DNA from: Candidatus Thiocaldithrix dubininis
Lineage (GTDB): Bacteria > Pseudomonadota > Gammaproteobacteria > Thiotrichales > Thiotrichaceae
NCBI GenBank assembly: GCA_029972135.1
Contig: CP124755.1
Span: 2,351,991 to 2,415,990, forward strand
DNA length: 64,000 nt
Direction of reading: 5' to 3'
Made by a program: the position numbers and the translations under genes. Under the pieces are notes generated by a model. The model was not told the origin of the DNA, made no database searches, and was given only the letters and a program-made list of their open reading frames with translations. Positions 1 to 16,241 of this stretch are shown piece after piece. Each line of letters opens with the position of its first letter. Position 1 is the first letter of the stretch.

Positions 1-2
1 AT

Positions 3-914
3 GTTGGTTTATTAGAAGCTCATAGCACTCTATTAGTTTTAGCAAGACCAGAAGAGGCTCTAGAAATGAGGGATGAAAGTGGTATTAAAGCTGAAACAGC
101 TACTGAAGGTTATGATTTGAAAAAAGATCAAGTACACATGTCACTTGCATCTCTTAAATTTCAAAGTTTACCAATAACTTTTTTTAACTCAAGGGAAGAT
201 GATCCTAACTCATTACAGGATTTTTTAAATAGGCGTATTAAGGAAATGCGTATAGGTTTTAGGAAAAGCCTAGAGGATATTCTAAATAATACTTTAAATT
301 TAATTGATAATTTTCACACCGAGCAAATACAAGCCGTAATACAAGATGCAGCAATGCTTTTAAATACGAGTATTAATCAAAAGATAGAACTTTCAATAAA
401 AGAATCATATATAAGAAGCAGTTTATTAAATGCGATATCCCAATCACATCCGAGCACTATTAGAGCAGCAATTAGTCGTAAAGGAGATTGGGATAACCTT
501 GACTATGTTCACCATCTAAGTTACGGAGCGAGACAGGTTGCAGTACAGTCATTACAATCAGCTAAACTAGGTATTGTTGAGATATGCGACACTATGATTG
601 CGAATCCAAAACACACAGAAGCCAAAGATTTTATCGAACAATTTAAGCGTATCTTATTAACAGCTTACGAAAAATTACTAACTGAAGCTCAAACGAGAGG
701 CAAAGAGTCGTTTCGTGATCGTTTAAAAACAGAAATTTTATTATGGTCTAATTGTAGAGAAGAAAAGGGCAAGGGTTACAGAGATAGAGTTATTGATCAT
801 CATAAAAAATGGTTCGATGATGATGAGCAAAAGAAGTTAGTAAACGCCTTTTCTTCATGGTTAAATGAACAGTGGTTGGAAATCATAAAAAAACTCTCAT
901 TGTTACTAAACTAA
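3..914 (+). CDS. hypothetical protein, C-terminal part (ORF open to the window start)
   Basis: Frame 3 is open from base 3 (VGLLEAHSTLL...), with the stop at 912-914. It is visibly AT-rich compared with neighbouring cbbO. I recognise no motif. Confidence 0.5.
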   Translation, partial: VGLLEAHSTLLVLARPEEALEMRDESGIKAETATEGYDLKKDQVHMSLASLKFQSLPITFFNSREDDPNSLQDFLNRRIKEMRIGFRKSLEDILNNTLNLIDNFHTEQIQAVIQDAAMLLNTSINQKIELSIKESYIRSSLLNAISQSHPSTIRAAISRKGDWDNLDYVHHLSYGARQVAVQSLQSAKLGIVEICDTMIANPKHTEAKDFIEQFKRILLTAYEKLLTEAQTRGKESFRDRLKTEILLWSNCREEKGKGYRDRVIDHHKKWFDDDEQKKLVNAFSSWLNEQWLEIIKKLSLLLN

Positions 915-924
915 ATTTACAGTA

Positions 925-945
925 GGGTGAGCTGATAGCTCACCC
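925..945. terminator. hairpin between convergent genes (possible bidirectional terminator)
   Basis: gggtgagc-tgata-gctcaccc forms an 8-bp stem that overlaps the cbbO stop. There is no clear T-tract. Confidence 0.3.
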
Positions 946-3189
946 CGTCAACGCCATAAACACCTGCGGCAATCGCTCTGGCAAGCGCTGTACATTATCA
1001 ATCACCGTATAACGTTTGCCGAATATATCGCGCACGTATTCATCTGCTCGTGGGTCGAGGCTAATGCAGTAGGTATAAATACCTTGATTATCTAATTCTT
1101 TTACCGCTTGGCGCGTGTCCTGCGTCAATAATTGCGGGTCATCCACATCAATATCGGAGGGTTCGCCGTCGGTGAGAATTAGTAACAGTTTTTTATCGGC
1201 GTTTTGATGTTCTAAATAATGTGCGGCGTGGCGTAATGCTGCCCCCATGCGCGTAGAATAGCCCGCTTCCATTGCCGCTAAACGTCCCTTGACTTCATCC
1301 TGAAATGACTCGCGGAAGCCTTTAATATGCTGGTAGCGTACTTCGTGGCGCGTGTTGGAGGCAAAGCCTGCAATGGCAAACGGATCGCCCAGTGCTTCAA
1401 TCGCCCATGCTAATAAGGACACGGCTTCTTGGCTGAGTTCGAGGATACTTTGCGTGCAGCCTTGAGGGGTTTCGCTGATCGAGGCGGACAAGTCCAATAG
1501 CAGCATCACCGCAATATTACGCCCGTCGTGCTTATGGCTCATATTGATACGCGGGTCGGGATTTGCGCCACTTTTAAAATCAATCAGGGAACGAATCGCC
1601 ACGTCCAAATCCAGCTCACTACCTTCTTCTTGATAACGCACGCGGGTATAGTTTTGCGGCTTTAATAAATCGACAATTTGCTTGAGCTTTTTCGCCAATG
1701 CCGCATGTTTTGCCAGCAATGCATCAATATGTGCAGGGCTGCCTTGAGCGTGCAAACCTTCATACACACTCACCCAATCAGGGCGGTAGGTCTGCGTACT
1801 GTAATCCCATTCGGGGTAATGGCGCGGCGGCAAGCCTTGCACGTCGCTTTGATCGTCGCGCTGAGTTTGCTCAAAAAAGTCCTCATCATCGCTTTCCTCA
1901 ATAAACTGCCACAAATGCCGATTATCATCGCGGTACGGAATTGTGGTATCGGTAAAATACACATTCGGCAATTGATCAGACTGCAAGCGCGTTTTTGCTA
2001 CGAATGACAAGGCTAAATCGACCATTGCACGGGTAGAACTGTCGCCTTGTTGCATGAGGGCGTGAAACTGGGCGACATATTCATTAATGGTGGCATTTTG
2101 ATAGCCATGTTCAGGGTTCAAAATCGCATAGGACAACATCGCCAAACGATGGCGCAGACAGGATTCTTTGGCGGGATTACACGCACCTTCTTCTGGGCGA
2201 GGATGCAGGGCAATAAAGATACGGCGTAAGCCTTGATACTGCTGCATTGCCAAGTACTCGACGCGGCTGTCTTCCAAGCGTTCAATGGCAATGCGTTGCT
2301 GTGGGCTGAAATTATCGGCAATCACCTTTCTCGTCCAACGCTGATGCGCCGCCATGTGCGCCAATACCGCGCGATAACGGTCTATGCCGCGCACCCCATT
2401 GAAATCATCGAATACATCAGGAATACGCATACCATATTCATCAACATACGGCTGTTGTTCGCGCATATCACGGAAATCAATCGAGTACGGTACGAGGTGA
2501 TCGGTACGTTGCCAACAGGCTTGCAGATACAGATTTAGCTTGCGCTCGTGATGGGTAAATAGCGTACCTTTGCGCTCATGCTGCAACATAGCTTTACTAT
2601 CCGCCGACTCCAGCGCGAAGTACTCCTCTTGGCGCTGCGGATGTTTGCCATAATTGCGAATGCCGTATTCAATCCAATTTTTTAAACCACCCAATGCCAA
2701 TTGATTGATTAAATAAGGCATTTGCTGGAGTAGTTTAGGCAAACCTGGACTGGGAATAGTGGTATGAAAACCATGAATCGAGCCTGTGGTGCGGTTCATC
2801 ATCTCAAAAATGATTTCAATATAATGCTCAACCAATTCACGACTTCCCAAACGCCGCGCTACTTCAGGCAGCGCTTGCAAAAACGCAGGAATCGAGCGCC
2901 CATTGGGAGTACGCGACATCGTCCACACCGCTTGGCTAATGCATGTGAGCATATCCTCGCCTAAGTTGTGGGCAATATCAGGCATTTCTTCCAGATAAGT
3001 CAGTACAGGGTCAAACCCGCGCCCGATCTTGCACACCAACGATGCACCCTCGAGATAATCCCTAATCCCCTGTTCACTCAACACCGCTTGCGCATGCTGC
3101 ATACAACCCGCAAAGGCATCATCGAGCTGTTTGAAATTGCAGCTTAATTGGGTGCGATAATGAGCAAGGGCTTCGGCGGATAGCGACAT
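940..3189 (-). CDS. cbbO: RuBisCO activase subunit CbbO (von Willebrand factor A domain protein)
   Basis: 749 aa with a C-terminal VWA domain carrying a MIDAS-like LLLDLSASIS motif. The size and its co-orientation with cbbM/cbbQ fit the CbbO/NorD family. Confidence 0.85.
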   Translation of the reverse strand: MSLSAEALAHYRTQLSCNFKQLDDAFAGCMQHAQAVLSEQGIRDYLEGASLVCKIGRGFDPVLTYLEEMPDIAHNLGEDMLTCISQAVWTMSRTPNGRSIPAFLQALPEVARRLGSRELVEHYIEIIFEMMNRTTGSIHGFHTTIPSPGLPKLLQQMPYLINQLALGGLKNWIEYGIRNYGKHPQRQEEYFALESADSKAMLQHERKGTLFTHHERKLNLYLQACWQRTDHLVPYSIDFRDMREQQPYVDEYGMRIPDVFDDFNGVRGIDRYRAVLAHMAAHQRWTRKVIADNFSPQQRIAIERLEDSRVEYLAMQQYQGLRRIFIALHPRPEEGACNPAKESCLRHRLAMLSYAILNPEHGYQNATINEYVAQFHALMQQGDSSTRAMVDLALSFVAKTRLQSDQLPNVYFTDTTIPYRDDNRHLWQFIEESDDEDFFEQTQRDDQSDVQGLPPRHYPEWDYSTQTYRPDWVSVYEGLHAQGSPAHIDALLAKHAALAKKLKQIVDLLKPQNYTRVRYQEEGSELDLDVAIRSLIDFKSGANPDPRINMSHKHDGRNIAVMLLLDLSASISETPQGCTQSILELSQEAVSLLAWAIEALGDPFAIAGFASNTRHEVRYQHIKGFRESFQDEVKGRLAAMEAGYSTRMGAALRHAAHYLEHQNADKKLLLILTDGEPSDIDVDDPQLLTQDTRQAVKELDNQGIYTYCISLDPRADEYVRDIFGKRYTVIDNVQRLPERLPQVFMALTG

Positions 3190-3286
3190 ACAAACTCTCT
3201 CAGAAACAGGTGCGATGATTTTGCCTGAAGGTAGTTTAGGCGGAATGAGGGTGGGGAGGCTATATTACTGTGAGGGGTGATGGGGA

Positions 3287-4708
3287 CTAAATCATATCTG
3301 CTGGACTACGTACACTGATACCGGGCGTATTCAACACATGGGTATAAATCATCGTTGTCGATACATCCGAATGTCCCAGTAATTCCTGAACGGTACGGAT
3401 GTCGTAACCGGATTCCAGCAAATGGGTAGCGAAGGAATGGCGGAAGGTGTGCGTGGTGGCATGTTTGGTGATCCCCGCTTGTTTCACCGCCCGCCGAATG
3501 ATTTTCTGCAAACTGGTTTCATGCAGATGATGGCGACGCACCACCCCAGAACGCGGGTCAGCAGCGACACCACTGGAAGGAAACACATATTGCCAGCGTA
3601 ATTCTTTCGCTGCATTTTGGTATTTTCTCCCCAAGGCATCGGGCAGATACACCTCGCCAAACCCGTTTTTTAAGTCCATTTGATGTTGACGCTCAACGAA
3701 GGCAATTTGTTGTTTGAGGGCATCTTTGAAACGTTCGGGCAGCGGCACAATCCGATCTTTAAAGCCCTTAGCATTGCGAATCAGCAATTGGTTGTAATCG
3801 AAATCCACATCCAGAATCCGCAGGGTCACGCACTCCATGAGACGCAAACCGCCACCGTAGAGCAAGCCCGTCATTAAATGATGCGTACCTTTCAGGTGTT
3901 GGAATACGCGGCGCACTTCATCACGGGACAGCACCACCGGCAATTTACGTGGGCGTTTTGAACCGATAAAGTCGCCCAAATCATCCAGCGGCTTTTTCCA
4001 GACTTGGTTAAACAGGAACGCAAGCGCATTTAATGCCTGCTTTTGGGTGGAAACTGAGACATTGCGTTTAAGCACAAGGTATTCGAGGTATTGTTTGACT
4101 TCTTTACCGCCCAAATCATGCACGTCGTTGGGTTTGTGGAAGTAAAAAAAGCGGGCAATCCAACCGCGATAGGTTTGTTCGGTGCGCATCGCGTAATTTT
4201 TGAGGCGCACGGCTTTGACTACTTCGGCTAAGGCTGGCTGATAACGTTGGTAAAGCTCATTGGAACAACGCTCTTCACCTTCGAGCATTTCTAGCCCTTC
4301 CAGACCATTGAGGGCATCGGTGTAATCACGAGCGACAGTAGCATGATTGGCATCCAATTTTTTCGCGGACGCTGACCAGTATTCCCAATCGAAATCATTT
4401 GCCCAACTTTTTTTCAATGCCAGACAAAACAGAATCCGTATAGCATCGACGACTTGCCCGAATTGCCACGCCTTCAAGTTAACTTCACGCCCTACTTTGG
4501 TGAGATATTCCTCTACTTGTTGGGTTGTATGAGTGCGTATATGATCGTCTGGAAAGTAGGCAATATACTGCTTGGTACGCAGCACATACCACGTCACATA
4601 TTTTTGACTAACCCCCTGTTTGACAAGGAAAAGCGTGTAATTTTTCCAGAACTCATGGGAATACGAGGTTGCCCGTGTTACGGGGCTTCGTGTATGCTTC
4701 TTATCCAT
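3287..4708 (-). CDS. intI: integron integrase IntI (tyrosine recombinase) with an N-terminal extension of about 150 aa
   Basis: The C-terminal ~320 aa align by eye with IntI1: LPDALGRKYQNAAKELRWQYVFP (IntI-specific insert), DPRSGVVRRHHLHE, HTFRHSFATHLLESGYDIRTVQELLGHSDVSTTMIYTHV. Confidence 0.92.
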   Translation of the reverse strand: MDKKHTRSPVTRATSYSHEFWKNYTLFLVKQGVSQKYVTWYVLRTKQYIAYFPDDHIRTHTTQQVEEYLTKVGREVNLKAWQFGQVVDAIRILFCLALKKSWANDFDWEYWSASAKKLDANHATVARDYTDALNGLEGLEMLEGEERCSNELYQRYQPALAEVVKAVRLKNYAMRTEQTYRGWIARFFYFHKPNDVHDLGGKEVKQYLEYLVLKRNVSVSTQKQALNALAFLFNQVWKKPLDDLGDFIGSKRPRKLPVVLSRDEVRRVFQHLKGTHHLMTGLLYGGGLRLMECVTLRILDVDFDYNQLLIRNAKGFKDRIVPLPERFKDALKQQIAFVERQHQMDLKNGFGEVYLPDALGRKYQNAAKELRWQYVFPSSGVAADPRSGVVRRHHLHETSLQKIIRRAVKQAGITKHATTHTFRHSFATHLLESGYDIRTVQELLGHSDVSTTMIYTHVLNTPGISVRSPADMI

Positions 4709-4838
4709 TAATATTAGCTGAATTTTTGGGACATGCTTTATGGTAATGCCAAAATATGCGGAATTCTCTACGAACCAGATAGGTGGCGTGTGCTCACCGA
4801 TTGAGCACAGGCTTCCTATCCTGATATTCCAGAACGCC

Positions 4839-4857
4839 GCCTAATAAACTGTTAGGC
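4839..4857 (+). other. attI core (GCCTAAT-N5-G|TTAGGC)
   Basis: Inverted L/R boxes gcctaat ... gttaggc. G4851|T4852 is the inferred crossover, because TTAGGC is the reverse complement of the R'' box (GCCTAAC, 5265) of the first cassette. Confidence 0.6.
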
Positions 4858-5321
4858 CTTTTAAAAGCCGCTCTCCTGAATGTTCTCCATCTTTCAGCCA
4901 GTATCAAATCTATTGAGTTTTCGCTACCGTAGCTAATTCTGAATCCTTCGATATAGAATCACAGCATGCACCTTCCTCCTTGCAATCTATCGTCGTTAGC
5001 AACACCGCACTGCGGGGCGGGGTTACTTCATCGGCTATCCCGCCCGCAGGCTCTGTATTCCTTCGCGCCTCAATCACCTTCACTTTCTTCGACGTGTTGT
5101 TCTCCCTGCTGTCAGCGTAAAACCCTCCCTCCGAAAAACAGCCCCGCAGTGCTTCTCACTCCGGTCACAGTGTCAAGAACAACCTTCGCGTACCTCATAG
5201 GCAAAAAACCACTCCGGCAAAGTTCGCGCAGAACTCAAACTTCTGTCTTCTCGCAAGCACCTAGGCCTAACCCTTCGGTCGAGGGGACTCGCCGCAAGCG
5301 GCGAGCCCCTCACCTTGAACG
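4852..5321 (+). mobile_element. integron cassette 0 (ORF-less, GC-rich, pyrimidine-rich top strand)
   Basis: Starts with TTAGGC and ends with attC0. The only ORF (4966-5325) is low-complexity and reads through the attC. Confidence 0.65.
5265..5321 (+). repeat. attC0 (57 bp)
   Basis: R'' is GCCTAAC. An imperfect hairpin gaggggActcgcc-gcaa-ggcgagcccctc follows, and the site ends ...ccttgaacG at the crossover. Confidence 0.65.
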
Positions 5322-5508
5322 ATAGCGCAGAACCGCATACGCAGTTCTGCGCTATTGTATCGGAGTTGAGCTTCGCTCGAACGGGTTGCAGCCACCACGC
5401 TCCGCGTTCTGGCTATCAACCCATTCGAGTGGATACATTTGCGCCCATGAAGCGACTCTTCTAAAGAGTCACTTCATGGTCACAAACGCCCCACTCAACT
5501 CCGATACA
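5322..5508 (+). repeat. 187-bp structured ORF-less element, copy 1 (at the attC0 crossover)
   Basis: Base-identical to 6304-6490 and 8637-8823. It starts right after the attC terminal G and is followed by TTAGAC of the next cassette. Confidence 0.95.
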
Positions 5509-5541
5509 TTAGACAAAATTAAACACCCACGAGGATCACAA

Positions 5542-5727
5542 ATGGCAAAATATAGAGTTCACTATGATGCAACTAACCCAAATGGTAAAAGCAAAATGAC
5601 ATCTTACATTGACGTAGAAGCCGAATCAGATTTCATGGCTAATACACTTGCAGAATCTCAATTTTTCAGCCGCCATCCAACGTGTAGAGATTACACATTT
5701 AAGGCAAAGAAAATTGAGAAAAAATAG
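5542..5727 (+). CDS. small hypothetical protein (61 aa)
   Basis: ATG is preceded by a gagga RBS. The longer ORF-track version starts inside the 187-bp repeat and was trimmed. Confidence 0.5.
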   Translation: MAKYRVHYDATNPNGKSKMTSYIDVEAESDFMANTLAESQFFSRHPTCRDYTFKAKKIEKK

Positions 5728-5776
5728 ATTTTAATTAGATAATAATTTTTATTTCAACTACTTGGAGATTTCAATA

Positions 5777-6028
5777 ATGGGATTTTGGGACAAAGCTTTT
5801 GATGTGGCTAAAAATGTCGGAACAGCAGCAATGTCTGCGGTTGAGGAATCAGCTAATGAGACAAGAGAGATAAAACTCAAATGCGAAGGAAAATCTGATG
5901 ATGAATTGCTTCGCATGATTCATAGTGATGGTTTTTTTAGTAGTTCATCAAAAGAAAAAGCAATTGCTTTTAGTACGCTAAAAAGTCGTGGATATAGTGC
6001 TGAAGACATAAATGCAGCCAAACGTTAA
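5777..6028 (+). CDS. small hypothetical protein (83 aa)
   Basis: ATG is preceded by a ggag RBS. I recognise no family. Confidence 0.5.
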   Translation: MGFWDKAFDVAKNVGTAAMSAVEESANETREIKLKCEGKSDDELLRMIHSDGFFSSSSKEKAIAFSTLKSRGYSAEDINAAKR

Positions 6029-6050
6029 TTTTAACTTTAGAGAACTGAAT

Positions 6051-6206
6051 ATGGAAGATAAATGGGAATTCTATCAAGATGGTAATAATAAATGGCGTTG
6101 GAGAAGAATAGCATCAAATGGAAGAATAGTTGGCTCATCTAGTCAGGGCTATGTTAATCGCTCTGATTGTATTGATAATGCTAGACGACATGGCTATGAT
6201 GGCTAA
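6051..6206 (+). CDS. DUF1508/YegP-like small protein (51 aa)
   Basis: WEFYQDGNNKWRWRRIASNGRIVGSSSQGYVNRSDCIDNA matches the single YegP repeat pattern (WRWRL..NG..ia.S.gY.s...c..gi). Confidence 0.6.
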   Translation: MEDKWEFYQDGNNKWRWRRIASNGRIVGSSSQGYVNRSDCIDNARRHGYDG

Positions 6207-6218
6207 TTAGTATTAATC

Positions 6219-6303
6219 GTCTAACAAATCATTCGACGACGGACGCGGTGACAGCCCGCGTCTTCGTTTTATCTACTCCCCACCGCGCCCGTCAATTCAG
6301 ACG
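6219..6303 (+). repeat. attC1
   Basis: R'' is GTCTAAC. It has the conserved core tcgacgacggacgcggtgacagcccgcg ... ctactccccaccgcgcccgtca and ends cagacG. Confidence 0.85.
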
Positions 6304-6490
6304 ATAGCGCAGAACCGCATACGCAGTTCTGCGCTATTGTATCGGAGTTGAGCTTCGCTCGAACGGGTTGCAGCCACCACGCTCCGCGTTCTGGCTATCA
6401 ACCCATTCGAGTGGATACATTTGCGCCCATGAAGCGACTCTTCTAAAGAGTCACTTCATGGTCACAAACGCCCCACTCAACTCCGATACA
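6304..6490 (+). repeat. 187-bp structured ORF-less element, copy 2 (at the attC1 crossover)
   Basis: Identical to copy 1 and followed by TTAGCA of cassette 2. Confidence 0.95.
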
Positions 6491-6531
6491 TTAGCATCGC
6501 AAATAATAATGCCTCACGGATATAAACCTAT

Positions 6532-7533
6532 ATGTTGTCTAAACTAGAAAAAATACCAGATATAAATGAAGAAGCTGTAGTTGTTTATGCCTATTTACAA
6601 ATGCTGGAAAAATGGCTCAGAGAAATGGTTTACGTTGAGCTAAAAGCAAAAAAAGGAAATAGCTGGTTTAATTTTCATAAAACAAAAAATACATATGATT
6701 CAGATAAAAAATATACGCATATGTCAACCCCAGAATCTAGCCCATTAAGTTATTTGTCTTTTGGTGAATTACAAAAGCTTATCAAAAATAATTGGGAGAT
6801 TTTTTCACCATACCTACCACCACAAAACATATGGGATGCAAAGCTAGAAGAAATAGATAACATTAGAAATAGAATAGCCCATTTCAGATCATTACATGAA
6901 CAAGATTTAAATAGAGTTTTACAATTTTTGCGAGACATAGATCAAGGTTTTTGGAGATTCTGCACAAGTTATAATGATTCTTTTACGGTTCTACCAGCAG
7001 ATAATGATTCAGTTACAAACAAATTTGCTGACCTTGATCCATTTTTCCCAAAACAAATAGATGAGAAGAGATGGGTTACTGTCGGACATGCACCTCCCGA
7101 TTTGTTATATATTGTATCTATTAGAGTAATCAGACGATTATGGTGCGACACCTCAGATAAGATAGAAGGCACACCTGGCTATTTATATGATTTAAACATT
7201 GTTATTAGAGGTCAACGCCAATATGACTACAAAAGATTTCTCAGTGCATCAAAAAAACTACACTCTAAATTTGTTCATATCTGTTTAGATCATCAATCAA
7301 ATAGTATTCGGATCACCATTCCTGCAAATTATGGGAGTGAAGAAGTTATTAATATAATAGAACAGCTAATCGAGATAACGGAACACACGATAATTCCAAG
7401 TCGAGGGATAGTCGATATTGATGATACTTCAGTTAAAAAACTAGCTGATGAATGGCCTGAGTATGTGTTAAGTCCAAAGAATCCTTTGACTTTTTTAGAT
7501 TCAGAGATGCCTTGTTCTTTTTTCAATGCATAA
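6532..7533 (+). CDS. HEPN-motif protein (Swt1/Abi-like N-terminal domain) with an unknown C-terminal domain
   Basis: 333 aa. LEEIDNIRNRIAHFRSL contains an Rx4H motif in a helical N-terminal region. The gene is AT-rich. Confidence 0.55.
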   Translation: MLSKLEKIPDINEEAVVVYAYLQMLEKWLREMVYVELKAKKGNSWFNFHKTKNTYDSDKKYTHMSTPESSPLSYLSFGELQKLIKNNWEIFSPYLPPQNIWDAKLEEIDNIRNRIAHFRSLHEQDLNRVLQFLRDIDQGFWRFCTSYNDSFTVLPADNDSVTNKFADLDPFFPKQIDEKRWVTVGHAPPDLLYIVSIRVIRRLWCDTSDKIEGTPGYLYDLNIVIRGQRQYDYKRFLSASKKLHSKFVHICLDHQSNSIRITIPANYGSEEVINIIEQLIEITEHTIIPSRGIVDIDDTSVKKLADEWPEYVLSPKNPLTFLDSEMPCSFFNA

Positions 7534-7535
7534 AA

Positions 7536-7620
7536 TGCTAACAATTATGTCGACGACGGACGCGGTGACAGCCCGCGAGTTCCAACAATCTACTCCCCGC
7601 CGCGCCCGTCACACATGACG
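7536..7620 (+). repeat. attC2 (the only junction not occupied by the 187-bp element)
   Basis: R'' is TGCTAAC. It has the same conserved core as attC1 and attC3, and it ends catgacG|TTAGCG. Confidence 0.85.
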
Positions 7621-7710
7621 TTAGCGCAACAGTGCGATTTATATTAGTTGAATCAACATATTATGTTTTTTAAAAAAGTTTAAAGTATAAAAATAAATAT
7701 AGGAAAAATA

Positions 7711-8544
7711 ATGGCACAAGTGTTTATAACAAAGTCTCACTTAGAAAATATTGCACGACTAATATCCTATCAATCAATTGACGTAAATCATATACGTGGG
7801 TTTTATGAATCAAGATTTCTTGGTTTTTTTTCCACCCCAGAATTAAATACATTAACGGCCGTTAGTTTGGTTCTTGAAAGCATTAAAGATGAAGAGCTAA
7901 AGATAAAAATTATTACACTTCATGATAACGCAAAAGCTAGGATTGAAAAATATAATAAAAATGAAAATTCACGATGGATATATGTAGGATCAAAACCTGC
8001 CTATCATCATGATGAAAAGTGTATATCTCTTTACTCAACTTATGAAAACTATGAAATACCTGTGGAAATCCCGGAAGACAAAATTAAAGATTACAGAACC
8101 TTCTTCCTAAACAATATTGATGAGTATACAAATAAAAGAGATGTATTCTTTGCTAAGGTAGAATTAAAATTCAATGTCCGCATTAATAATGTTAAAGAAG
8201 TGCATAAAGAAAATAGTGGTCGGCAATCTTTAAATGTTTTCACGGGCGGTCATAAGCAAATTTTAAGTGAAATATCTAATATAATAGAAGAAATGCACAA
8301 ATATAAAAATCAATCAAATGAGGTGAAGCGTATTATTTCTAACACTGGATTTAATACAAAAAAAGCATTAAAGCATCCTCTTTATAATGAAAGCCATGAA
8401 ATTATAAGAGAATGGGATAATTATAAGACAAAGCTAAAAGACTTAATAATACAAGATTTAACTAGTATTATAGCCCCTGAGTATAAATTTGATCATGATT
8501 TTTTAGAAGAACTAGGATTTAAAAAATGTTCAAAGTGCTTTTAA
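7711..8544 (+). CDS. hypothetical protein (277 aa)
   Basis: Single long ORF filling the cassette, AT-rich. It contains YHHDEKC and a C-terminal KKCSKCF. I recognise no family. Confidence 0.6.
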   Translation: MAQVFITKSHLENIARLISYQSIDVNHIRGFYESRFLGFFSTPELNTLTAVSLVLESIKDEELKIKIITLHDNAKARIEKYNKNENSRWIYVGSKPAYHHDEKCISLYSTYENYEIPVEIPEDKIKDYRTFFLNNIDEYTNKRDVFFAKVELKFNVRINNVKEVHKENSGRQSLNVFTGGHKQILSEISNIIEEMHKYKNQSNEVKRIISNTGFNTKKALKHPLYNESHEIIREWDNYKTKLKDLIIQDLTSIIAPEYKFDHDFLEELGFKKCSKCF

Positions 8545-8552
8545 TGATAATT

Positions 8553-8636
8553 GGCTAACGAGCAGCTCGACGACGGACGCGGTGACAGCCCGCGATTTTT
8601 AATTTCTACTCCCCGCCGCGCCCGTCAGCCATGACG
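8553..8636 (+). repeat. attC3
   Basis: R'' is GGCTAAC. It has the conserved core tcgacgacggacgcggtgacagcccgcg ... ctactccccgccgcgcccgtca and ends catgacG. Confidence 0.85.
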
Positions 8637-8823
8637 ATAGCGCAGAACCGCATACGCAGTTCTGCGCTATTGTATCGGAGTTGAGCTTCGCTCGAACGGG
8701 TTGCAGCCACCACGCTCCGCGTTCTGGCTATCAACCCATTCGAGTGGATACATTTGCGCCCATGAAGCGACTCTTCTAAAGAGTCACTTCATGGTCACAA
8801 ACGCCCCACTCAACTCCGATACA
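8637..8823 (+). repeat. 187-bp structured ORF-less element, copy 3 (at the attC3 crossover)
   Basis: Identical to copies 1 and 2 and followed by TTAGAC. Confidence 0.95.
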
Positions 8824-8852
8824 TTAGACTAACTATCTCAAAAGGTGAATTA

Positions 8853-8876
8853 TTACGATTGCAATCCATCGTAATA
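8853..8876 (+). promoter_or_regulatory. inverted repeat upstream of the RHH gene (candidate operator)
   Basis: attacgat-N8-atcgtaat is a perfect 8-bp inverted repeat about 45 bp upstream of the ATG at 8922. Confidence 0.35.
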
Positions 8877-8921
8877 CGATTTAATGTCATTGGCTGTTCC
8901 CTTAAGTCAAAAGATTTAAAC

Positions 8922-9179
8922 ATGCCAAGAACAACCCTAGTCACTCGGATAGAAGTTGATCTGAAAAATCAACTGGGTGAAATTGCAAAGCAGCAGAACC
9001 GTACCACCAGCAATCTTATTGAATGGTTAGTCAAGCAGTACATTGGGCAGGTCGCCAAACCCACCAACAGCACAGCACCAGTGGAGCTTGATTTTGCATC
9101 GACAGACGACCTGCACAGCGTCCTAGCCAAGCGGCGCCCCGCCATTGCCGACACCCTCCGCTATTTAGAGGACAAATGA
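8922..9179 (+). CDS. ribbon-helix-helix (CopG/Arc-like) antitoxin
   Basis: 85 aa. The N-terminus PRTTLVTRIEVDLKNQLGEIAKQQNRTTSNLIEWLVKQY fits an RHH strand-helix-helix pattern. Its stop overlaps the next ATG (ATGA). Confidence 0.6.
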   Translation: MPRTTLVTRIEVDLKNQLGEIAKQQNRTTSNLIEWLVKQYIGQVAKPTNSTAPVELDFASTDDLHSVLAKRRPAIADTLRYLEDK

Positions 9180-9349
9180 GACTGCTGTCCACTGTGGATG
9201 TCATCCACATCCACGATACTGTTATTCACCCCCATGAGTTGCAGGGGCAAGCGCCAGACAAATCGGTGGAAGCTGTTATTACACGAGTACGAAACCGTTT
9301 TGAATACGGACTGATACCCGATGCGTTCGCGCTTGCCGCCTGTTACTGA
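9176..9349 (+). pseudogene. truncated Doc/Fic-family toxin (N-terminal 57 codons only)
   Basis: MRLLSTVDVIHIHDTVIHPHELQGQAPDKSVEAVITRVRNRFEYGLIPDAFALAACY aligns by eye with the P1 Doc N-terminus. It stops before the HxFxxxNKR Fic motif. Confidence 0.55.
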
Positions 9350-9554
9350 AGCCAGAAAAAATTTCGCCTCAGTGTTGGAAACAGCAAAGCAAGAAGGGAT
9401 TACTTGCATTTATAAACGCAATGGAGAAGCTTATTATCTTACTCCCGCAAAAACCCAAAAATCTCCGTTAGATGTGGAAGGTATAGACTTACGTCTTTCA
9501 TGCAGTCAGATTATGTCTATTCTGAGCAAAAGCAGAGAAAGAACTTACTTTTAG
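9321..9554 (+). CDS. Phd/YefM-like antitoxin with no cognate toxin
   Basis: VTEARKNFASVLETAKQEGITCIYKRNGEAYYLTP matches the Phd/YefM N-terminal pattern. Its start overlaps the Doc fragment in another frame. Confidence 0.45.
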   Translation: MRSRLPPVTEARKNFASVLETAKQEGITCIYKRNGEAYYLTPAKTQKSPLDVEGIDLRLSCSQIMSILSKSRERTYF

Positions 9555-9588
9555 TTCATTTAGCTCGCTGCCCAATTAAAAATCAGCC

Positions 9589-10389
9589 TCAAAACACCAT
9601 CTCAATCGCATGATGCAGCGTACTCCGAATATCCGCATCATCGGTAATCGGGCTAACCAGTGCCATACGGCAAGCATCTTTTTGATCAATCCCGTGTTTC
9701 ATTAAACTCGCAGCATAGACTAATAAACGAGTAGAAATCCCTTCATCCAGACCATGCCCTTTCAGATTACGGGCGGTTTGCGCAATTTGCACCAGCTTCT
9801 GAGCAGTATCCAGTTCAATACCCGCTTCTTTGCTTAAAATGCCAGCTTCGGCTTCTGGGGCGGGATAATCAAAATCGAAGGCGACAAAACGTTGTTTGGT
9901 GGATTGCTTTAAATCCTTCATCAGGCTTTGATAGCCCGGATTATAAGAAATCACCAATTGGAAATCAGGATGCGCCTGCACTAATTCGCCTTTTTTATCT
10001 AAAGGCAATGTACGGCGATGGTCAGTGAGTGGGTGAATCACGACAGTGGTATCTTGACGCGCTTCAACAATCTCATCCAAATAACAAATCGCCCCCATTC
10101 GAGCCGCCGTGGTCAAAGGGCCGTCTAACCAGCGTGTGCCATTGGCTTCTAATAAATAACGCCCCACCAAATCCGATGCAGTCATATCCTCATTACAAGC
10201 TACTGTAATTAAAGGTTTACCTAACTTCCATGCCATGTGTTCGACAAAACGCGATTTACCACAACCCGTCGGGCCTTTCACCATCACGGGTAAACGGGCT
10301 TGATAGGCAGCTTGATAAAGTGCTACTTCATTGCCAACGGCTTGATAAAACGGTTCGGTGTCAATGCGGTATTGGTTGATGTCGGTCAT
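9589..10389 (-). CDS. cbbQ: RuBisCO activase AAA+ ATPase CbbQ (MoxR family)
   Basis: 266 aa. Walker A is GPTGCGKS and Walker B is ICYLDEI. It lies immediately downstream of cbbM. Confidence 0.92.
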   Translation of the reverse strand: MTDINQYRIDTEPFYQAVGNEVALYQAAYQARLPVMVKGPTGCGKSRFVEHMAWKLGKPLITVACNEDMTASDLVGRYLLEANGTRWLDGPLTTAARMGAICYLDEIVEARQDTTVVIHPLTDHRRTLPLDKKGELVQAHPDFQLVISYNPGYQSLMKDLKQSTKQRFVAFDFDYPAPEAEAGILSKEAGIELDTAQKLVQIAQTARNLKGHGLDEGISTRLLVYAASLMKHGIDQKDACRMALVSPITDDADIRSTLHHAIEMVF

Positions 10390-10416
10390 GGCTGTGTATT
10401 ACCTAGTGAGATTAAG

Positions 10417-10509
10417 AACCCCTCCCTAACCCTCCCTTTATCAAGGGAGGGAATAGAGATCAGCAAACCTGAACGCTCCTCCCCTGACAAGGGGAGGCTG
10501 GGAGGGGTT
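10417..10509 (-). other. structured intercistronic element between cbbM and cbbQ
   Basis: Outer helix aacccctccc/gggaggggtt encloses two hairpins (10430-10451, 10478-10497). All are built from CCCTCCC/GGGAGGG. Confidence 0.5.
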
Positions 10510-10523
10510 TATACGATTTCTTA

Positions 10524-11909
10524 TTACTTATGTACGCCTAATTTTTCGCGCCAGCCGGGGAATAATTTGTCTGCGTCATTCGGGAAGGATTCAAACGCAC
10601 GCGCAAATTCTTTATGCGATTTAGCGAATTCAATCGGGTCAGCACCCGCTTTCCAGCACTCATACGATTGACGTAACGAAATCGCACCAGCGGCTGGGCT
10701 GTCGATGTGACCGTAAGAGCCACCGCCTGCGGTATTAATCACGTTACCATGACCCAAGTTTTGGAAGAAGCCGGGTAAACGTAATGCATTCATACCACCC
10801 GAAATAATCGGGGTAGTGGGTTTCATGCCATACCATTTTTGGAAGTAGACAGGCCCTTGACACTCGTCGCGTTCAATCATGTACGCAATACCTTTGTCGT
10901 CGGCTTCGCCTTCCATTTTACCGTAGCCCATAGTACCGACGTGGATACCCGAAGCCCCTTGTAAACGCGACATTTTCGCCAATACGAAAGCTGTGTAACC
11001 GCGTTTAGCCGAAGGTGACGTAATCGCACCGTGACCTGCACGATGGTAGTGTAAGTATTGGTTAGGGTATTGACGACGTGCGGTGGTAATCATACCCGGG
11101 CCGCCCACATAACCATCGACTAAGAAGGCTACTTTGTCTGCATCAGGGCCAAAGGTTTCGAGAATATAGTCCGCACGAGCACACATTTCATAATGGTCGT
11201 CAGCAGTAATATTTGCTGAGAAAATTTTGGCTTGACCCGTTTCGTCTTGGGCGCGTTTCATCGCATCCGCCACTAAAGGCATAACCTTTTTCATTGGCGC
11301 GAACACTTGGTTGCCTTGAGGCTCGTCATTTTTAATGAAGTCGCCACCTAACCAGAATTGATATGCCGCATGGGCGAATGGCTCAGGACGTAGGCCTAAT
11401 TTTGGCTTAATAATAGTACCCGCGATATAGCCGCCGTCTTTAATTGGGCGACCCAAAATACGCCACATATCAGAGATATCTTTAGACGGACCATCGAATA
11501 ATTGGATGGCACGTTCGGGTACAAAGAAGTCGATCATTTTAGCGTGTTCAATGTCACCCATGCCTTGGTTATTACCAATCACCAAGGTGAGGAAAGACAC
11601 AATCATCATACGACCATCGGTCACATTGCGGTCAAACAAATCCAAAGGATAGGCAATACGCATATCTTCAGTGGCTTCATCGATGTAGTACACCAACGCA
11701 TCCACGCCCTTAGTGAAATCATCCGTGGTACACACTTCCACGTTCGTCCCTGTGGATGATTCAGCCGCAAAGTGCGCTGCTGCTTCTAAGTAACCGTGAC
11801 CCGATTTTGGCTTCATTTTGTAAGCGACTAGAATGTGCTTACCGCCTGCCATTAATTCGTCTTCTTTTAAGCTCAAATCTGAGTAGCGTGATGATTGATC
11901 TAAAGCCAT
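10524..11909 (-). CDS. cbbM: ribulose-1,5-bisphosphate carboxylase/oxygenase, form II
   Basis: 461 aa starting at MALDQSSRY with a gaggag [17 protein letters not shown] and the overall sequence are typical of form II. The 30 upstream codons in the ORF track were trimmed. Confidence 0.95.
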
Positions 11910-12082: not shown

Positions 12083-12979
12083 ATGCATATTTCCCTACGC
12101 CAAATTCAGATTTTCCAAACCGTTGCACAAACGGAAAATTTCACACGCGCGGCTGAACAGTTACACATGACCCAACCGGCAATCTCAATGCAAGTCAAAC
12201 AACTAGAAGAGCAAACAGGTTTGGCGCTATTTGAACGCCAAGGTAAACGTATTGTGCTAACTGAAGCCGGGCGTGCCATGCATCAATACACCGGCGAATT
12301 GCTTACCCAATATCAGGGCATGATAGAAACCTTGGAAGACCTGAAAAATGTACACCAAGGGCATATTCGAGTCTCGGCTGCCACCACGTCGATTTATTTT
12401 ATTACACGCTTGCTTGCTAGTTTCTCCAAACTACACGAAGGTATTACCGTTAAACTGAATATTACCAATCGCAAAACCTTGGTCGAGCAATTACAAAACT
12501 ATGAAGCCGATTTGGTCATTATGGGCGAACCCCCCGCCAATTTAGACCTACACTCCCAACGCTTAATGGCTAATCCTTTAGTGTTAATCGCCCCCCTTGA
12601 GCACCCTCTTACCCAACAAACTAATATTCCCTTAAGTGCCTTATTGCAAGAAAACTTTGTGTTACGTGAAGCCGGTTCAGGCACACGCGCCGCTATTGAA
12701 CGCTTCTTTGCCGAACACGGTTATAAGCTGCCCAGTACCTTAGAAATGGATAGCAATGAATCCATCAAATATTCGGTCATTGCGGGTTTAGGCTTAGGCA
12801 TTGTGTCTTTGCATAGCGTGCGTTTAGAACTCGAAACGCATGCATTAACACTACTTGACGTACAAGGTTTTCCACTCCAACGCCATTGGCATATTGTCAC
12901 ACGCGAAGGCAAAGCCCTCTCCCCTGCCGCCCAAGCATTTAAAGCCTATGTGATTCAAGAAGCCGCGCATTACGTATAA
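12083..12979 (+). CDS. cbbR: LysR-family transcriptional regulator CbbR
   Basis: 298 aa. The N-terminal HTH is FTRAAEQLHMTQPAISMQVKQLEE. It is divergent from cbbM. Confidence 0.88.
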   Translation: MHISLRQIQIFQTVAQTENFTRAAEQLHMTQPAISMQVKQLEEQTGLALFERQGKRIVLTEAGRAMHQYTGELLTQYQGMIETLEDLKNVHQGHIRVSAATTSIYFITRLLASFSKLHEGITVKLNITNRKTLVEQLQNYEADLVIMGEPPANLDLHSQRLMANPLVLIAPLEHPLTQQTNIPLSALLQENFVLREAGSGTRAAIERFFAEHGYKLPSTLEMDSNESIKYSVIAGLGLGIVSLHSVRLELETHALTLLDVQGFPLQRHWHIVTREGKALSPAAQAFKAYVIQEAAHYV

Positions 12980-14540: not shown

Positions 14541-16241
14541 GTGGAACTGACCGGAGCCGAAATATTCGTTGAGTGTCTTAAGGAAGAAGGGGTTGAGACC
14601 ATCTTCGGTTACCCCGGTGGTGCGGTCCTGCATATTTATGATGCGTTATACAAAGCGCAACAGGACGTTAACCATATCCTTGTTAGACATGAGCAAGCCG
14701 CTGTACATGCGGCGGAAGGTTATGCCAAGGCAACCAATAAACCGGGCGTGGTGCTAGTGACTTCAGGTCCTGGTGCGACCAATGCGGTGACAGGGATTGC
14801 CGATGCTTATATGGACTCCGTGCCGCTAGTGGTGTTCACTGGGCAAGTGCCGCGTGCTTTAATTGGCAATGATGCATTTCAAGAAGTCGATATTGTGGGT
14901 ATTACCCGCCCCTGCGTAAAACATAACTTTTTAGTTACTGATGTTAAAGATTTAGCAACCACGATTAAAAAGGCGTTTTACATTGCCAGCACCGGACGCC
15001 CCGGTCCAGTATTGGTCGATATTCCCAAGGATATTACGGCTACGCGTTGCACCTTTGAATATCCGAAAGAAATTAGCATTCGTTCGTATAATCCCACCAT
15101 TAAAGGCAATAAGCGCCAAGTCCGTCGCGCCATTGATTTAATGTTAGAAGCCAAACGCCCTATTCTGTATACCGGCGGTGGCGTGGTGTTATCGGGTGCG
15201 TCTAAAGAATTAACAGCCTTTACGCGTGAAATGGGTTTCCCCATTACCAATACCCTAATGGGTTTGGGCGCATATCCGTCGATGGATCCGCAATTTGTGG
15301 GTATGTTAGGCATGCACGGCACGTATGAAGCCAATAATGCCATGCACGAATCTGACCTAGTGATTGCAATTGGTGCGCGTTTTGATGACCGTGTAACCGG
15401 CAATATCGAAAAATTCTGCCCTTACGCCAAGATCATTCATATTGATATTGACCCTGCGTCTATTTCCAAAAACGTGAAAGTCGATGTGCCGATTGTGGGC
15501 GATGTCAAACACGTATTGAATGAATTGATCGAAGAATTACATACGCGTACTGAACGCCCTGATAAAGCGGTATTAGCGGCTTGGTGGCAGCAGATTGAAG
15601 AATGGCGCAGCGCTAAATGCATGAAGTACACCCAAGATATGGAGGGGGCGATTCGTGCACAGTTCGTCATTGAAAAATTGTGGGAAGTCACCAACGGCGA
15701 TGCTTATGTGTGTTCAGACGTGGGGCAACACCAAATGTGGGCCGCGCAATACTACAAGTTCAGTCAGCCAAATCGTTGGATTAACTCCGGTGGCTTAGGC
15801 ACGATGGGCTTTGGTTTGCCCTCAGCAATGGGGGTGCAATTAGCCTACCCTGATGCGACCGTAGCTTGCGTAACCGGTGATGGCAGTATTCAAATGTGTA
15901 TTCAGGAATTAGCGACCTGTACCCAATACCGCCTACCCGTTAAAATTATCTGCTTAAATAACGGTTACTTAGGCATGGTACGTCAATGGCAAGAGTTCTT
16001 CTATGACAAACGCTACTCCATGTCTTATATGGATTCGCTGCCCGACTTCGTGAAATTAACCGAAGCTTATGGTCACGTTGGTATGCGTATTGAACGTCCG
16101 AGCGATGTTGAGGGCGCATTAAAAGAAGCATTAGCAATGAAAGATCGCTTAGTCTTTATGGACTTCATTACCATGCAAGAAAACAATGTGTACCCAATGG
16201 TTCCAGCGGGTGCGGGTCATAATGAAATGCTTCTTTTATAG
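14541..16241 (+). CDS. ilvI: acetolactate synthase large subunit
   Basis: 566 aa with a GTG start. It shows a ThDP enzyme pattern (GYPGGAVLHIYDAL, GLGTMGFGLPSAMG) and is followed by the small subunit. Confidence 0.93.
   Translation: MELTGAEIFVECLKEEGVETIFGYPGGAVLHIYDALYKAQQDVNHILVRHEQAAVHAAEGYAKATNKPGVVLVTSGPGATNAVTGIADAYMDSVPLVVFTGQVPRALIGNDAFQEVDIVGITRPCVKHNFLVTDVKDLATTIKKAFYIASTGRPGPVLVDIPKDITATRCTFEYPKEISIRSYNPTIKGNKRQVRRAIDLMLEAKRPILYTGGGVVLSGASKELTAFTREMGFPITNTLMGLGAYPSMDPQFVGMLGMHGTYEANNAMHESDLVIAIGARFDDRVTGNIEKFCPYAKIIHIDIDPASISKNVKVDVPIVGDVKHVLNELIEELHTRTERPDKAVLAAWWQQIEEWRSAKCMKYTQDMEGAIRAQFVIEKLWEVTNGDAYVCSDVGQHQMWAAQYYKFSQPNRWINSGGLGTMGFGLPSAMGVQLAYPDATVACVTGDGSIQMCIQELATCTQYRLPVKIICLNNGYLGMVRQWQEFFYDKRYSMSYMDSLPDFVKLTEAYGHVGMRIERPSDVEGALKEALAMKDRLVFMDFITMQENNVYPMVPAGAGHNEMLLL

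What the first reader, a model, noticed from the sequence alone, without database searches (positions are those of the whole stretch)
3190..9588. An integron is wedged between cbbQ and cbbO, splitting the RuBisCO activase gene pair
Reading the minus strand, the order is cbbM (11909-10524), cbbQ (10389-9589), about 6.4 kb of integron, then cbbO (3189-940). CbbQ and CbbO act as one activase complex and are normally adjacent downstream of RuBisCO genes. Here intI is co-oriented with the cbb genes and lies 97 bp upstream of cbbO, while the cassettes face the opposite way. Two consequences follow, both by inference. First, any read-through from the CbbR-controlled cbbM promoter would be antisense to every cassette and sense to intI and cbbO. 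That would tie integrase expression to autotrophy regulation, and would make cbbO depend on read-through or on a new promoter. Second, the distal end of the array (9555-9588) has no attC and abuts the cbbQ stop within 34 bp, so the array looks truncated at this junction.
Basis: partly seen in the sequence, partly recalled or inferred. Interest (0 to 1): 0.7.

Follow-up and report, generated by a model that had tools for sequence, protein, structure and literature searches.

The report
Chromosomal integron between cbbQ and cbbO
A genuine, recently active integron (a gene-capture platform) sits between the two RuBisCO-activase genes of a sewage Thiolinea/Thiothrix bacterium, but this gap already holds unrelated DNA in the nearest relatives, so it is an ordinary kind of element at an unusual address.

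Summary
Reading the minus strand, the order is cbbM, cbbQ, 6.4 kb of integron, a 97-nt gap, then cbbO. The 473-aa protein is an integron integrase (TIGR02249, 438.6 bits against a cutoff of 265; E 6.6e-91 to VchIntIA). attI has a G|TT crossover at 4851|4852. Eight cassettes follow. Four have attC sites, and the last is a truncated toxin-antitoxin remnant that abuts cbbQ.

Sewage metagenome contigs share both junctions but carry different inner cassettes. One cassette sits at attI in one sample and fourth in another. The array has therefore been active.

The interpretation needs correcting:
- cbbQ and cbbO are 200 nt or less apart in 56 of 69 other genomes.
- In the closest species the gap holds unrelated genes and no intI. 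The nearest relative keeps only a decayed attC.
- cbbO keeps a conserved ~92-nt leader and shows dN/dS of 0.02-0.08. It probably does not depend on read-through.
- Related integrases lie at other chromosomal sites.

Verdict: a new member of a known kind, of moderate-to-low interest.

Side finding: a 187-nt non-coding, highly structured cassette occurs three times. Each copy sits exactly at a crossover but has a non-canonical core.

The parts
940..3189 (-). cbbO (749 aa, VWA domain), intact
   Evidence: dN/dS is 0.02-0.08 against L021-L024.
3190..3283 (-). Conserved cbbO leader (~92 nt, begins CACCCCTCACAGTAATATAGCC in cbbO orientation). Probably the cbbO promoter or 5' UTR.
   Evidence: It is 76-95% identical across five species, and homology stops at the intI stop.
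3287..4708 (-). intI, integron integrase of 473 aa with a ~160-aa N-terminal extension carrying a second SAM-like stretch
4709..4851 (+). attI region, with the crossover between G4851 and T4852 (AAACTG|TTAGGCC)
   Evidence: The attI is identical in L001, L002, L004 and L008 but is followed by different first cassettes.
4852..5321 (+). Cassette 1, gene-less, 470 nt. Its short attC1 starts about 5265; the model hit runs on to 5328, past the G5321 crossover. R'' is GGCCTAAC, complementary to the cassette's own start TTAGGCC.
   Evidence: Model R1 hit of 18.3 bits, E 0.004, at a site not in the training set. No unusual fold.
5322..5508 (+). 187-nt structured non-coding cassette, copy A
5509..6303 (+). 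Cassette 3 with three small ORFs (5542-5727, 5777-6028, and 6051-6206 = DUF1508) and attC2 (6219-6303)
6304..6490 (+). 187-nt structured non-coding cassette, copy B
6491..7620 (+). Cassette 5: Swt1-like HEPN protein (6532-7533; PADLOC candidate PDC-M34B) and attC3 (7536-7620, canonical GCTAAC...G|TTAGC)
7621..8636 (+). Cassette 6: 277-aa ORF of unknown function (7711-8544) and attC4 (8553-8636)
8637..8823 (+). 187-nt structured non-coding cassette, copy C
   Evidence: the window reads GACG[element]TTAGACTAAC, while L016 reads GACG|TTAGACTAAC without it.
8824..9588 (+). Terminal cassette remnant: RHH antitoxin (8922-9179), doc toxin truncated after 57 codons (9176-9349), phd-like ORF (9321-9554). 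No attC; ends at the cbbQ stop.
   Evidence: The segment is 99.6-100% identical in L011-L020.
9589..10389 (-). cbbQ (266 aa, AAA_5 + CbbQ_C)
10524..11909 (-). cbbM, form II RuBisCO
12083..12979 (+). cbbR-like LysR regulator, divergent from cbbM

Best explanation
This is a small chromosomal integron of a Thiolinea/Thiothrix-like sulfur bacterium that is abundant in sewage. It has intI, attI and eight cassettes. It occupies a clade-specific variable slot between cbbQ and cbbO.

The integrase captures and reshuffles promoter-less cassettes at attI (G|TTAG). Cassette content includes anti-phage and toxin-antitoxin genes plus non-coding cassettes, and it differs between strains. The two outer junctions are fixed.

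The distal end has been eroded by deletion down to the cbbQ stop codon. The proximal end stops at the first base of a conserved cbbO leader. The reason (inferred) is that selection tolerates change only up to the functional borders of the two flanking genes.

cbbO is most likely transcribed from its own conserved leader rather than by read-through.

Shown: the identity of the parts, population-level cassette turnover, the rarity of the split elsewhere, and purifying selection on cbbO. Inferred: current integrase activity, an independent cbbO promoter, and the order of events.
For: - IntI membership: TIGR02249 at 438.6 bits against a cutoff of 265; 2a3v at E 6.6e-91 over the whole catalytic domain.
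- attC sites have RYYYAAC/G|TTRRRY boxes and an L-box helix.
- The attC family model also finds an untrained site in the window and sites in the T. nivea (L104) and L107 arrays.
- The attI crossover is identical but the first cassettes differ in L001, L002, L004 and L008. The cassette TTAGGATATTTAATACC is first in L004 and fourth in L001.
- The segment [cassette 6 + element] is present in the window and L011 but absent in L016, with a clean G|TTAG joint.
- Chromosomal context: the ilvBNC genes and two tRNA genes flank the region.
- cbbQ-cbbO spacing is 200 nt or less in 56 of 69 genomes. It exceeds 600 nt only in L098 and the Thiolinea loci L022, L024 and L025.
- The closest relatives hold other genes in the gap. 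L021 retains a decayed attC of the same family (27.8 bits, E 6e-7).
- Conserved leader.
- cbbO dN/dS is 0.02-0.08.
- Integrases that are 75-93% identical lie next to unrelated genes. Nucleotide homology spans only attI to the intI stop.
Against: - No expression data exist, and the promoter scan was no better than chance (19 sites against 18.7 expected). The independent cbbO promoter is therefore inferred from conservation only.
- The array is short (8 cassettes), unlike the classical large sedentary integrons.
- attI plus intI is 99.9-100% identical between strains whose adjacent cbbO differs by about 7%. Simple vertical inheritance cannot explain this.
- The gaps in L022-L025 show no attC. 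Whether the slot was created by an integron or merely used by one is open.
Confidence: 0.85

Rival explanations
1. First reader's reading. The integron insertion itself split an intact cbbQO operon in this lineage. cbbO and intI are now expressed by read-through from the CbbR-controlled cbbM promoter, which couples integrase expression to autotrophy.
For: - Orientation fits: cbbM, cbbQ, intI and cbbO all lie on the minus strand.
- No terminator-like site was found on the minus strand between cbbQ and cbbO.
- The nearest relative, L021, has a decayed attC of the same family upstream of cbbO. An integron may therefore have been the first occupant of the slot in the ancestor of these species.
Against: - Four other close species have the pair split by unrelated DNA with no intI and no attC.
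- They share the same conserved leader boundary.
- cbbO is under strong purifying selection in all of them.
- Read-through would have to cross 6.3 kb, four attC hairpins and three very stable 187-nt structures of -75 kcal/mol as DNA.
Confidence: 0.2
2. The integron platform is itself mobile, or was recently transferred horizontally. It entered this site independently or swept through several lineages, rather than being a sedentary resident.
For: - attI plus intI (1565 nt) differs by 0-2 nt between strains whose adjacent cbbO differs by 148-160 of 2250 nt. Identity breaks 2 nt after the intI stop.
- Integrases that are 75-93% identical sit in six different chromosomal contexts. Homology is limited to the stretch from attI to the intI stop.
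Against: - The junction is the same in all three cbbO-allele lineages.
- There is no transposase, no terminal repeats and no target duplication at the borders.
- There is no plasmid-borne relative beyond the conserved intI 3' part.
- The same pattern arises if cbbO and the variable island downstream of it were imported by homologous recombination from integron-less donors. The heteroduplex would then end at the edge of homology. The genes downstream of cbbO do differ between these strains.
Confidence: 0.15
3. Assembly chimera: the integron and the cbb genes were joined by mis-assembly.
For: Repeats are present: three identical 187-nt copies and a homogeneous attC family. Repeats of this kind can mislead assemblers.
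Against: Ten contigs from different samples and assemblers span intI-leader-cbbO. Ten span cbbM-cbbQ-terminal cassette. L011 matches the window from cbbR through to the HEPN cassette.
Confidence: 0.02

Closest known systems
Sedentary chromosomal integrons (Vibrio superintegron; Xanthomonas ilvD-linked integrons)
   Same: - Chromosomal location.
- intI divergent from an array of mostly unknown-function, toxin-antitoxin and defence cassettes.
- A homogeneous, lineage-specific attC family. The same 92-nt family occurs in the Thiothrix nivea array.
- Strain-level cassette turnover.
   Different: - Only 8 cassettes here.
- The address is not conserved within the family. Related intI genes lie at six other loci, whereas the Xanthomonas integron is described as ancient and co-evolving with its genus (bioRxiv 10.1101/2025.06.18.660453, abstract).
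- It sits inside a functional gene pair.
- The distal end is deleted to the neighbouring stop codon.
CALINs (clusters of attC sites lacking an integrase)
   Same: The nearest relative, L021, has a cassette-like gene followed by a decayed attC upstream of cbbO, with no intI between it and the leader.
   Different: The window itself has an intact intI, so it is a complete integron and not a CALIN. L021 shows only one degenerate site on a short contig.
Gene-less (ORF-less) integron cassettes, some with promoter activity (PMC6557892; bioRxiv 10.1101/2023.11.21.568050)
   Same: The 187-nt element and cassette 1 are non-coding units bounded by the crossover points, in a fixed orientation. The element lies directly upstream of coding cassettes.
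   Different: - The element is almost entirely one folded structure.
- Its core is G/A|AT paired with AT|C/T instead of G|TT paired with AA|C.
- The helix next to the core has no bulged bases.
- It is present three times in eight cassettes.
- No promoter-like site was found in it.
Elements that target attC sites (group IIC-attC introns; the IS1111-attC group)
   Same: Repeated, orientation-specific occupation of integron recombination sites. A related Thiolinea array (L105) does carry three reverse-transcriptase/maturase genes between cassettes.
   Different: - The element has no ORF, is only 187 nt long and has no Rfam match.
- It lies exactly at the G|TT crossover and also at attI.
- In the described S.ma.I2 case, a group IIC-attC intron separates a gene from its own attC (PMC3001079).
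- The comparison with IS1111-attC rests on my own knowledge and was not tested.
CbbQ-CbbO RuBisCO activase operon
   Same: CbbQ (AAA_5 + CbbQ_C) and CbbO (VWA) lie downstream of cbbM with a divergent LysR regulator, as in 56 of 69 compared genomes.
   Different: The two genes are 6.4 kb apart here and are separated by genes on the opposite strand.

Membership tests
Integron (complete) | Tyrosine recombinase matching the IntI-specific profile | tested here: met
   TIGR02249 at 438.6 bits (cutoff 265), residues 160-472, profile positions 2-314 of 315.
Integron (complete) | IntI-specific additional segment and catalytic motifs aligned to a solved integron integrase | tested here: met
   Continuous alignment to VchIntIA 2a3v residues 9-317, E 6.6e-91. 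It covers ALGRKYQNAAKELRWQYVFPSS..RRHH, HTFRHSFATHLL and LGHSDVSTTMIYTHV. That these stretches are the IntI-specific segment and the catalytic motifs is my reading of the alignment.
Integron (complete) | attI next to intI with a G|TT crossover used by different cassettes | tested here: met
   AAACTG|TT.. is followed by four different sequences in the window, L001/L002, L004 and L008.
Integron (complete) | attC sites: RYYYAAC ... G|TTRRRY inverted boxes, an L-box helix and bottom-strand folding | tested here: met
   attC1-4 by inspection and folding. Of the cells in the R-box and L-box helices, 92% are paired, and the G.T wobbles are invariant on the bottom strand. A home-made family model hits an untrained site. 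No covariation is available because the L box is invariant.
Integron (complete) | Detection by the standard attC covariance model (IntegronFinder) | not testable with these tools
   The model is not available here, and Rfam has no attC family (one search gave no hits).
Integron (complete) | Cassettes move by integrase-mediated recombination | tested here: inconclusive
   Population data fit this. The same cassette occurs at different array positions, and presence/absence variants have exact G|TTAG joints. No enzymatic test is possible.
Sedentary chromosomal integron | Conserved chromosomal position across the genus and a large array of more than 20 cassettes | tested here: not met
   The array has 8 cassettes. 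Integrases 75-93% identical lie at other loci. At this locus intI is found only in this species group.
CbbQO activase gene pair | cbbQ immediately followed by cbbO | tested here: not met
   6399 nt separate the two genes here. The spacing is 200 nt or less in 56 of 69 other genomes.
Integron gene cassette (the 187-nt element) | Bounded by the crossover points, in a fixed orientation, and found at attI and after attC sites | tested here: met
   Five insertions in this species and one in T. nivea all lie between G and TT... L110 is bounded by CTG|..G|TTAG.
Integron gene cassette (the 187-nt element) | Own attC with conserved AAC/GTT triplets and extrahelical bases | tested here: not met
   The core is GAT/ATC in the T. 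nivea and L110 variants and AAT/ATT in the window. The adjoining 15-bp helix is perfectly paired.
IS200/IS605-type miniature element | Inserts 3' of a short target word anywhere in single-stranded DNA; has a TnpA partner | tested here: not met
   On the bottom strand the element lies 3' of CTAA. However, all copies are at integron crossovers and none elsewhere in the 64-kb window. No transposase is nearby.
Group IIC-attC intron | Intron RNA domains with a reverse transcriptase, inserted between a gene and its attC | tested here: not met
   No Rfam intron hit at E<=1. There is no ORF. The element is inserted at the crossover, not before the attC (PMC3001079).

The most novel reading that the evidence does not exclude
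The 187-nt element is a minimal non-coding cassette that amounts to little more than a recombination site. It propagates within integron arrays: three copies among eight cassettes here, a copy at attI in another sample, and diverged copies in T. nivea and L110.

It uses a non-canonical crossover core (G/A|AT instead of G|TT) and a conserved four-helix bottom-strand fold. If so, it would be a parasite or regulator of the integron system. It would also show that this integrase clade accepts sites outside the canonical AAC/GTT rule.
Probability: 0.3. Interest if true: 0.6.

Novelty: new member of a known kind. Interest (0 to 1): 0.38.

Why it matters
- It documents a working gene-capture platform inside a carbon-fixation gene cluster of an abundant wastewater sulfur oxidiser. 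Public metagenomes show its cassette turnover directly.
- It shows that the CbbQ-CbbO pair tolerates physical separation. cbbO stays under strong purifying selection in five species where it is split from cbbQ. This bears on how the 6:1 activase complex (stoichiometry from my own knowledge of published work) is expressed.
- It cautions against reading an insertion as the cause of a split when the site is a clade-wide variable slot.
- The cassettes include anti-phage genes (PD-T7-1 in one strain). This fits the current view, recalled from the literature and not checked here, that chromosomal integrons store defence systems.
- The non-canonical 187-nt cassette, and the sharp unit of identity running from attI to the intI stop, are leads for integron specialists.

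Tried and rejected
- Rfam scan of 3000-10500 at E<=1: nothing relevant. The 187-nt element and cassette 1 are therefore not known RNA families.
- My first ungapped attC finder found nothing. An energy-based AAC...GTT scanner did not separate real attC sites from background: background reached -27 kcal/mol. Its negative result on the relatives' gaps is therefore weak. I replaced it with a family covariance model.
- The mixed-length attC alignment A1 was poor for the short sites and was dropped. A4 had wrong coordinates and was redone as A5.
- The promoter and terminator scan was uninformative: 19 promoter-like sites against 18.7 expected. The only terminator-like sites lie on the cassette strand, and two of them fall inside attC2 and attC4.
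- Element as a coding sequence: rejected, because single-nucleotide indels separate the variants.
- Element as an IS200/IS605-like, group II intron or IS-derived miniature element: rejected or unsupported (see membership test).
- Cassette 1 as a structured RNA: rejected (z -1.2 and -0.6).
- Plasmid search for the element gave no match. A plasmid search for the platform matched only the conserved intI 3' part.
- A metagenome scan with a conserved 20-mer gave only three loci: one useful variant (L110), one copy interrupted by unrelated sequence that I read as a possible IS (L108), and one apparent chance match (L109).
- Literature searches found no report of an integron in Thiothrix genomes or between cbbQ and cbbO.

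Full report
**1.

ORF listing and family scans confirm the layout on the minus strand:
- cbbM 10524-11909
- cbbQ 9589-10389 (AAA_5 + CbbQ_C)
- a 473-aa ORF at 3287-4708
- cbbO 940-3189 (VWA domain)

A LysR gene at 12083-12979 lies divergent from cbbM. The intI-cbbO gap is 97 nt. The last ORF of the array ends 34 nt from the cbbQ stop.

GC content falls to 0.28-0.35 in the coding cassettes, against about 0.47-0.50 in the cbb genes.

The rest of the window encodes housekeeping genes and two tRNAs. The locus is therefore chromosomal.

CbbO relatives place the organism in the Thiolinea/Thiothrix group:
- L021, uncultured Thiothrix: 98%
- L022: 96%
- L024: 94%
- L023, Thiolinea disciformis DSM 14473: 93%

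**2. It is a complete integron**

The 473-aa protein scores 438.6 bits on TIGR02249 'integron integrase' (cutoff 265). It aligns end to end with the solved Vibrio integron integrase 2a3v (E 6.6e-91), including the stretch where integron integrases carry their extra segment.

Its ~160-aa N-terminal extension carries a second SAM-like stretch. This is not unusual: dozens of homologues of 460-470 aa, several named integron integrase, share it.

The attI crossover lies at G4851|T4852. The upstream 143 nt are identical in contigs L001, L002, L004 and L008, and each is followed by a different sequence.

The array reads:
- cassette 1 (gene-less, 4852-5321)
- a 187-nt element (5322-5508)
- a three-ORF cassette (5509-6303)
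- the element again (6304-6490)
- a HEPN cassette (6491-7620)
- a 277-aa ORF cassette (7621-8636)
- the element a third time (8637-8823)
- a terminal remnant (8824-9588)

attC3 is fully canonical (GCTAAC ... GACG|TTAGC). Cassette 1 starts TTAGGCC, and its own attC begins GGCCTAAC, as expected for a cassette circularised by the integrase.

Three of the four attC sites belong to one 92-nt family that is also used by the Thiothrix nivea array. I built a covariance model from 11 members. It recovers the short attC1, which was not in the training set (18.3 bits, E 0.004), and sites in L107. The L-box helix never varies, so there is no covariation for or against it. Its invariant G.T wobbles pair only on the bottom strand.

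**3. The array has been active**

Exact-protein look-ups found the same integrase on 19 contigs and the same CbbQ on 20, mostly from sewage metagenomes. Both outer junctions are constant, and the cbbQ side is 99.6-100% identical. The inner cassettes differ:
- L001 carries five other genes, among them a PD-T7-1 anti-phage protein (PADLOC E 4e-199).
- L002 carries a TM2-domain gene.
- The cassette beginning TTAGGATATTTAATACC sits at attI in L004 and fourth in L001.
- L016 lacks cassette 6 and the third element, with a clean GACG|TTAGAC joint.

The window's HEPN cassette matches the defence candidate PDC-M34B (E 2.7e-21).

**4.

The last unit holds three pieces: an RHH antitoxin, a doc-like toxin ORF that stops after 57 codons, and an overlapping phd-like ORF. 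No attC follows. Homology to the relative L022 resumes exactly at the cbbQ stop codon.

**5. The address is unusual, but the integron is probably not what split the pair**

In 69 genomes where both genes are in view, the cbbQ-cbbO spacer length is:

| Spacer | Genomes |
|---|---|
| 200 nt or less | 56 |
| 201-600 nt | 9 |
| over 600 nt | 4 (three are Thiolinea relatives) |

Six further loci show no cbbQ within at least 1.9 kb upstream of cbbO.

Every one of the closest species has the pair interrupted or separated by something different:
- L022: phd-vapC and a 402-aa gene
- L025: a radical-SAM cluster
- L024: a 110-aa ORF
- L021: a C-type-lectin-like gene
- L023: cupin and glyoxalase-like genes (named from their sequences by my reading)

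None has intI. The attC model finds nothing in the gaps of L022-L025, even with filters off. It does hit L021 at 242-314 (27.8 bits, E 6e-7). That site is a decayed copy of the same attC family in which both L-box arms are deleted. The nearest relative therefore looks like an integron remnant.

All five species share a ~92-nt leader upstream of cbbO (76-95% identical, against synonymous divergence of 0.4-0.86). Homology starts directly after the intI stop. cbbO dN/dS is 0.02-0.08 in every pair.

The simplest reading is that cbbO has been transcriptionally independent since before the integron's present form. Selection has trimmed the variable DNA to the functional borders on both sides. The read-through scenario is geometrically possible and untestable here.

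**6. The platform behaves as a discrete unit**

Integrases 75-93% identical lie next to unrelated genes in L101 and L103-L107. Nucleotide homology to the window runs only from the attI crossover to the intI stop.

Within the species group, attI plus intI (1565 nt) differs by 0-2 nt between strains whose adjacent cbbO differs by 148-160 of 2250 nt. The break lies 2 nt after the stop codon.

I favour the following explanation. cbbO and the strain-variable island downstream of it were imported from integron-less donors, and the heteroduplex ended at the edge of homology. The genes downstream of cbbO do differ between these strains. A horizontal sweep of the integron itself is the rival explanation.

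**7. The 187-nt element**

Three identical copies lie exactly between the G and the TT of crossover sites. L008 has one at attI, and L016 shows the empty joint.

The element begins ATAGCGC and ends GATACA. In a circle the two ends would complete a perfect 27-bp palindrome.

As single-stranded DNA the bottom strand folds at -75.5 kcal/mol (z -16.7). The top strand folds at -62 kcal/mol.

Diverged copies exist in the T. nivea array (nhmmer E 5.8e-28) and in L110. Across the three variants:
- 97.9% of cells pair.
- Eight pairs carry compensatory changes, for example TGTATC/GATACA, CGCGTC/GACGCG and CGTCTC/GAGACG.
- 0 of 500 shuffles reach the observed score, and slid controls give at most 2 compensatory pairs.

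With only three sequences this is suggestive, not proof.

Single-nucleotide indels rule out coding. The element has no Rfam match, no plasmid match and no promoter-like site.

Its own core is G|AT (A|AT in the window) paired with AT|C (AT|T). This is not the canonical G|TT with AA|C, and the adjoining helix has no bulged bases. It therefore fails two defining attC features while behaving positionally like a cassette.

Gene-less cassettes are a known class (PMC6557892; bioRxiv 10.1101/2023.11.21.568050). This would be an extreme and non-canonical example.

**8. Verdict**

The causal and regulatory interpretation is only partly supported. The object is a new member of a known kind: a small chromosomal integron. 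Its unusual location turns out to be a clade-specific variable slot.

Noticed in passing
window 5322-5508, 6304-6490, 8637-8823; L104:2566-2752; L110:232-418; L008:1-140: A 187-nt non-coding, strongly structured element is inserted exactly at integron crossover points (after attC sites and at attI). Its core is non-canonical (G/A|AT). Three variants show compensatory changes, and the G.T wobbles favour the bottom strand.
   Followed up: partly
L003:6205-6564; L022:13157-13239; L025:13144-13227; L033:13605-13976; L037:14307-14468, 15208-15393, 16274-16351: Extra partial copies of the cbbO 3' end lie downstream of cbbO in several genomes. In L037, three copies each end at the position of the stop codon and are separated by pairs of small ORFs that I read as toxin-antitoxin-like from their size and arrangement only (not scanned). 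The cbbO 3' end looks like a recurrent attachment or recombination site for small islands.
   Followed up: partly
window 1-939 (ORF 66-914 is the 3' part of a 707-aa HTH_3 gene); L001:9325-10359; L002:4967-7090: The region immediately downstream of cbbO has low GC (0.32-0.38) and differs between strains. cbbO is therefore flanked by variable DNA on both sides.
   Followed up: partly
window 3287-4851 versus L001, L004: attI plus intI is 99.9-100% identical at nucleotide level between strains whose adjacent cbbO differs by about 7%. Identity breaks 2 nt after the intI stop.
   Followed up: partly
L015:8876-10357; L018:3088-4149: In some strains a transposase gene (DUF772 + DDE_Tnp_1_6 domains, IS1182-like by my reading) ends ...ACACCCTCT directly at the TTAGAC start of the terminal RHH cassette. 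It occupies the same crossover point.
   Followed up: no
L105:997-8041: The cassette array of a related Thiolinea MAG carries three identical-length reverse-transcriptase/maturase genes (group II intron type). They lie between cassettes that include a beta-lactamase-like gene and an AadA_C-domain gene.
   Followed up: no
window 6241-6263 and 8578-8594: The inner hairpin of attC2 and attC4 (GACGCGGTGACAGCCCGCGTC) is followed by a T-run on the cassette strand and scores as terminator-like. It competes with the L-box pairing. Both of these sites are followed by the 187-nt element, whereas attC3 lacks the T-run and is not.
   Followed up: no
window 9589-11909 versus 940-3189, compared with L022: cbbM-cbbQ is 82.5% identical to L022 at nucleotide level, but cbbO is 92% identical. 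This suggests different recombination histories on the two sides of the slot.
   Followed up: no
window 3287-4708 (residues 1-160): The integrase has a ~160-aa N-terminal extension with a second SAM-like stretch. The long form is shared by many environmental integron integrases of 460-470 aa.
   Followed up: partly
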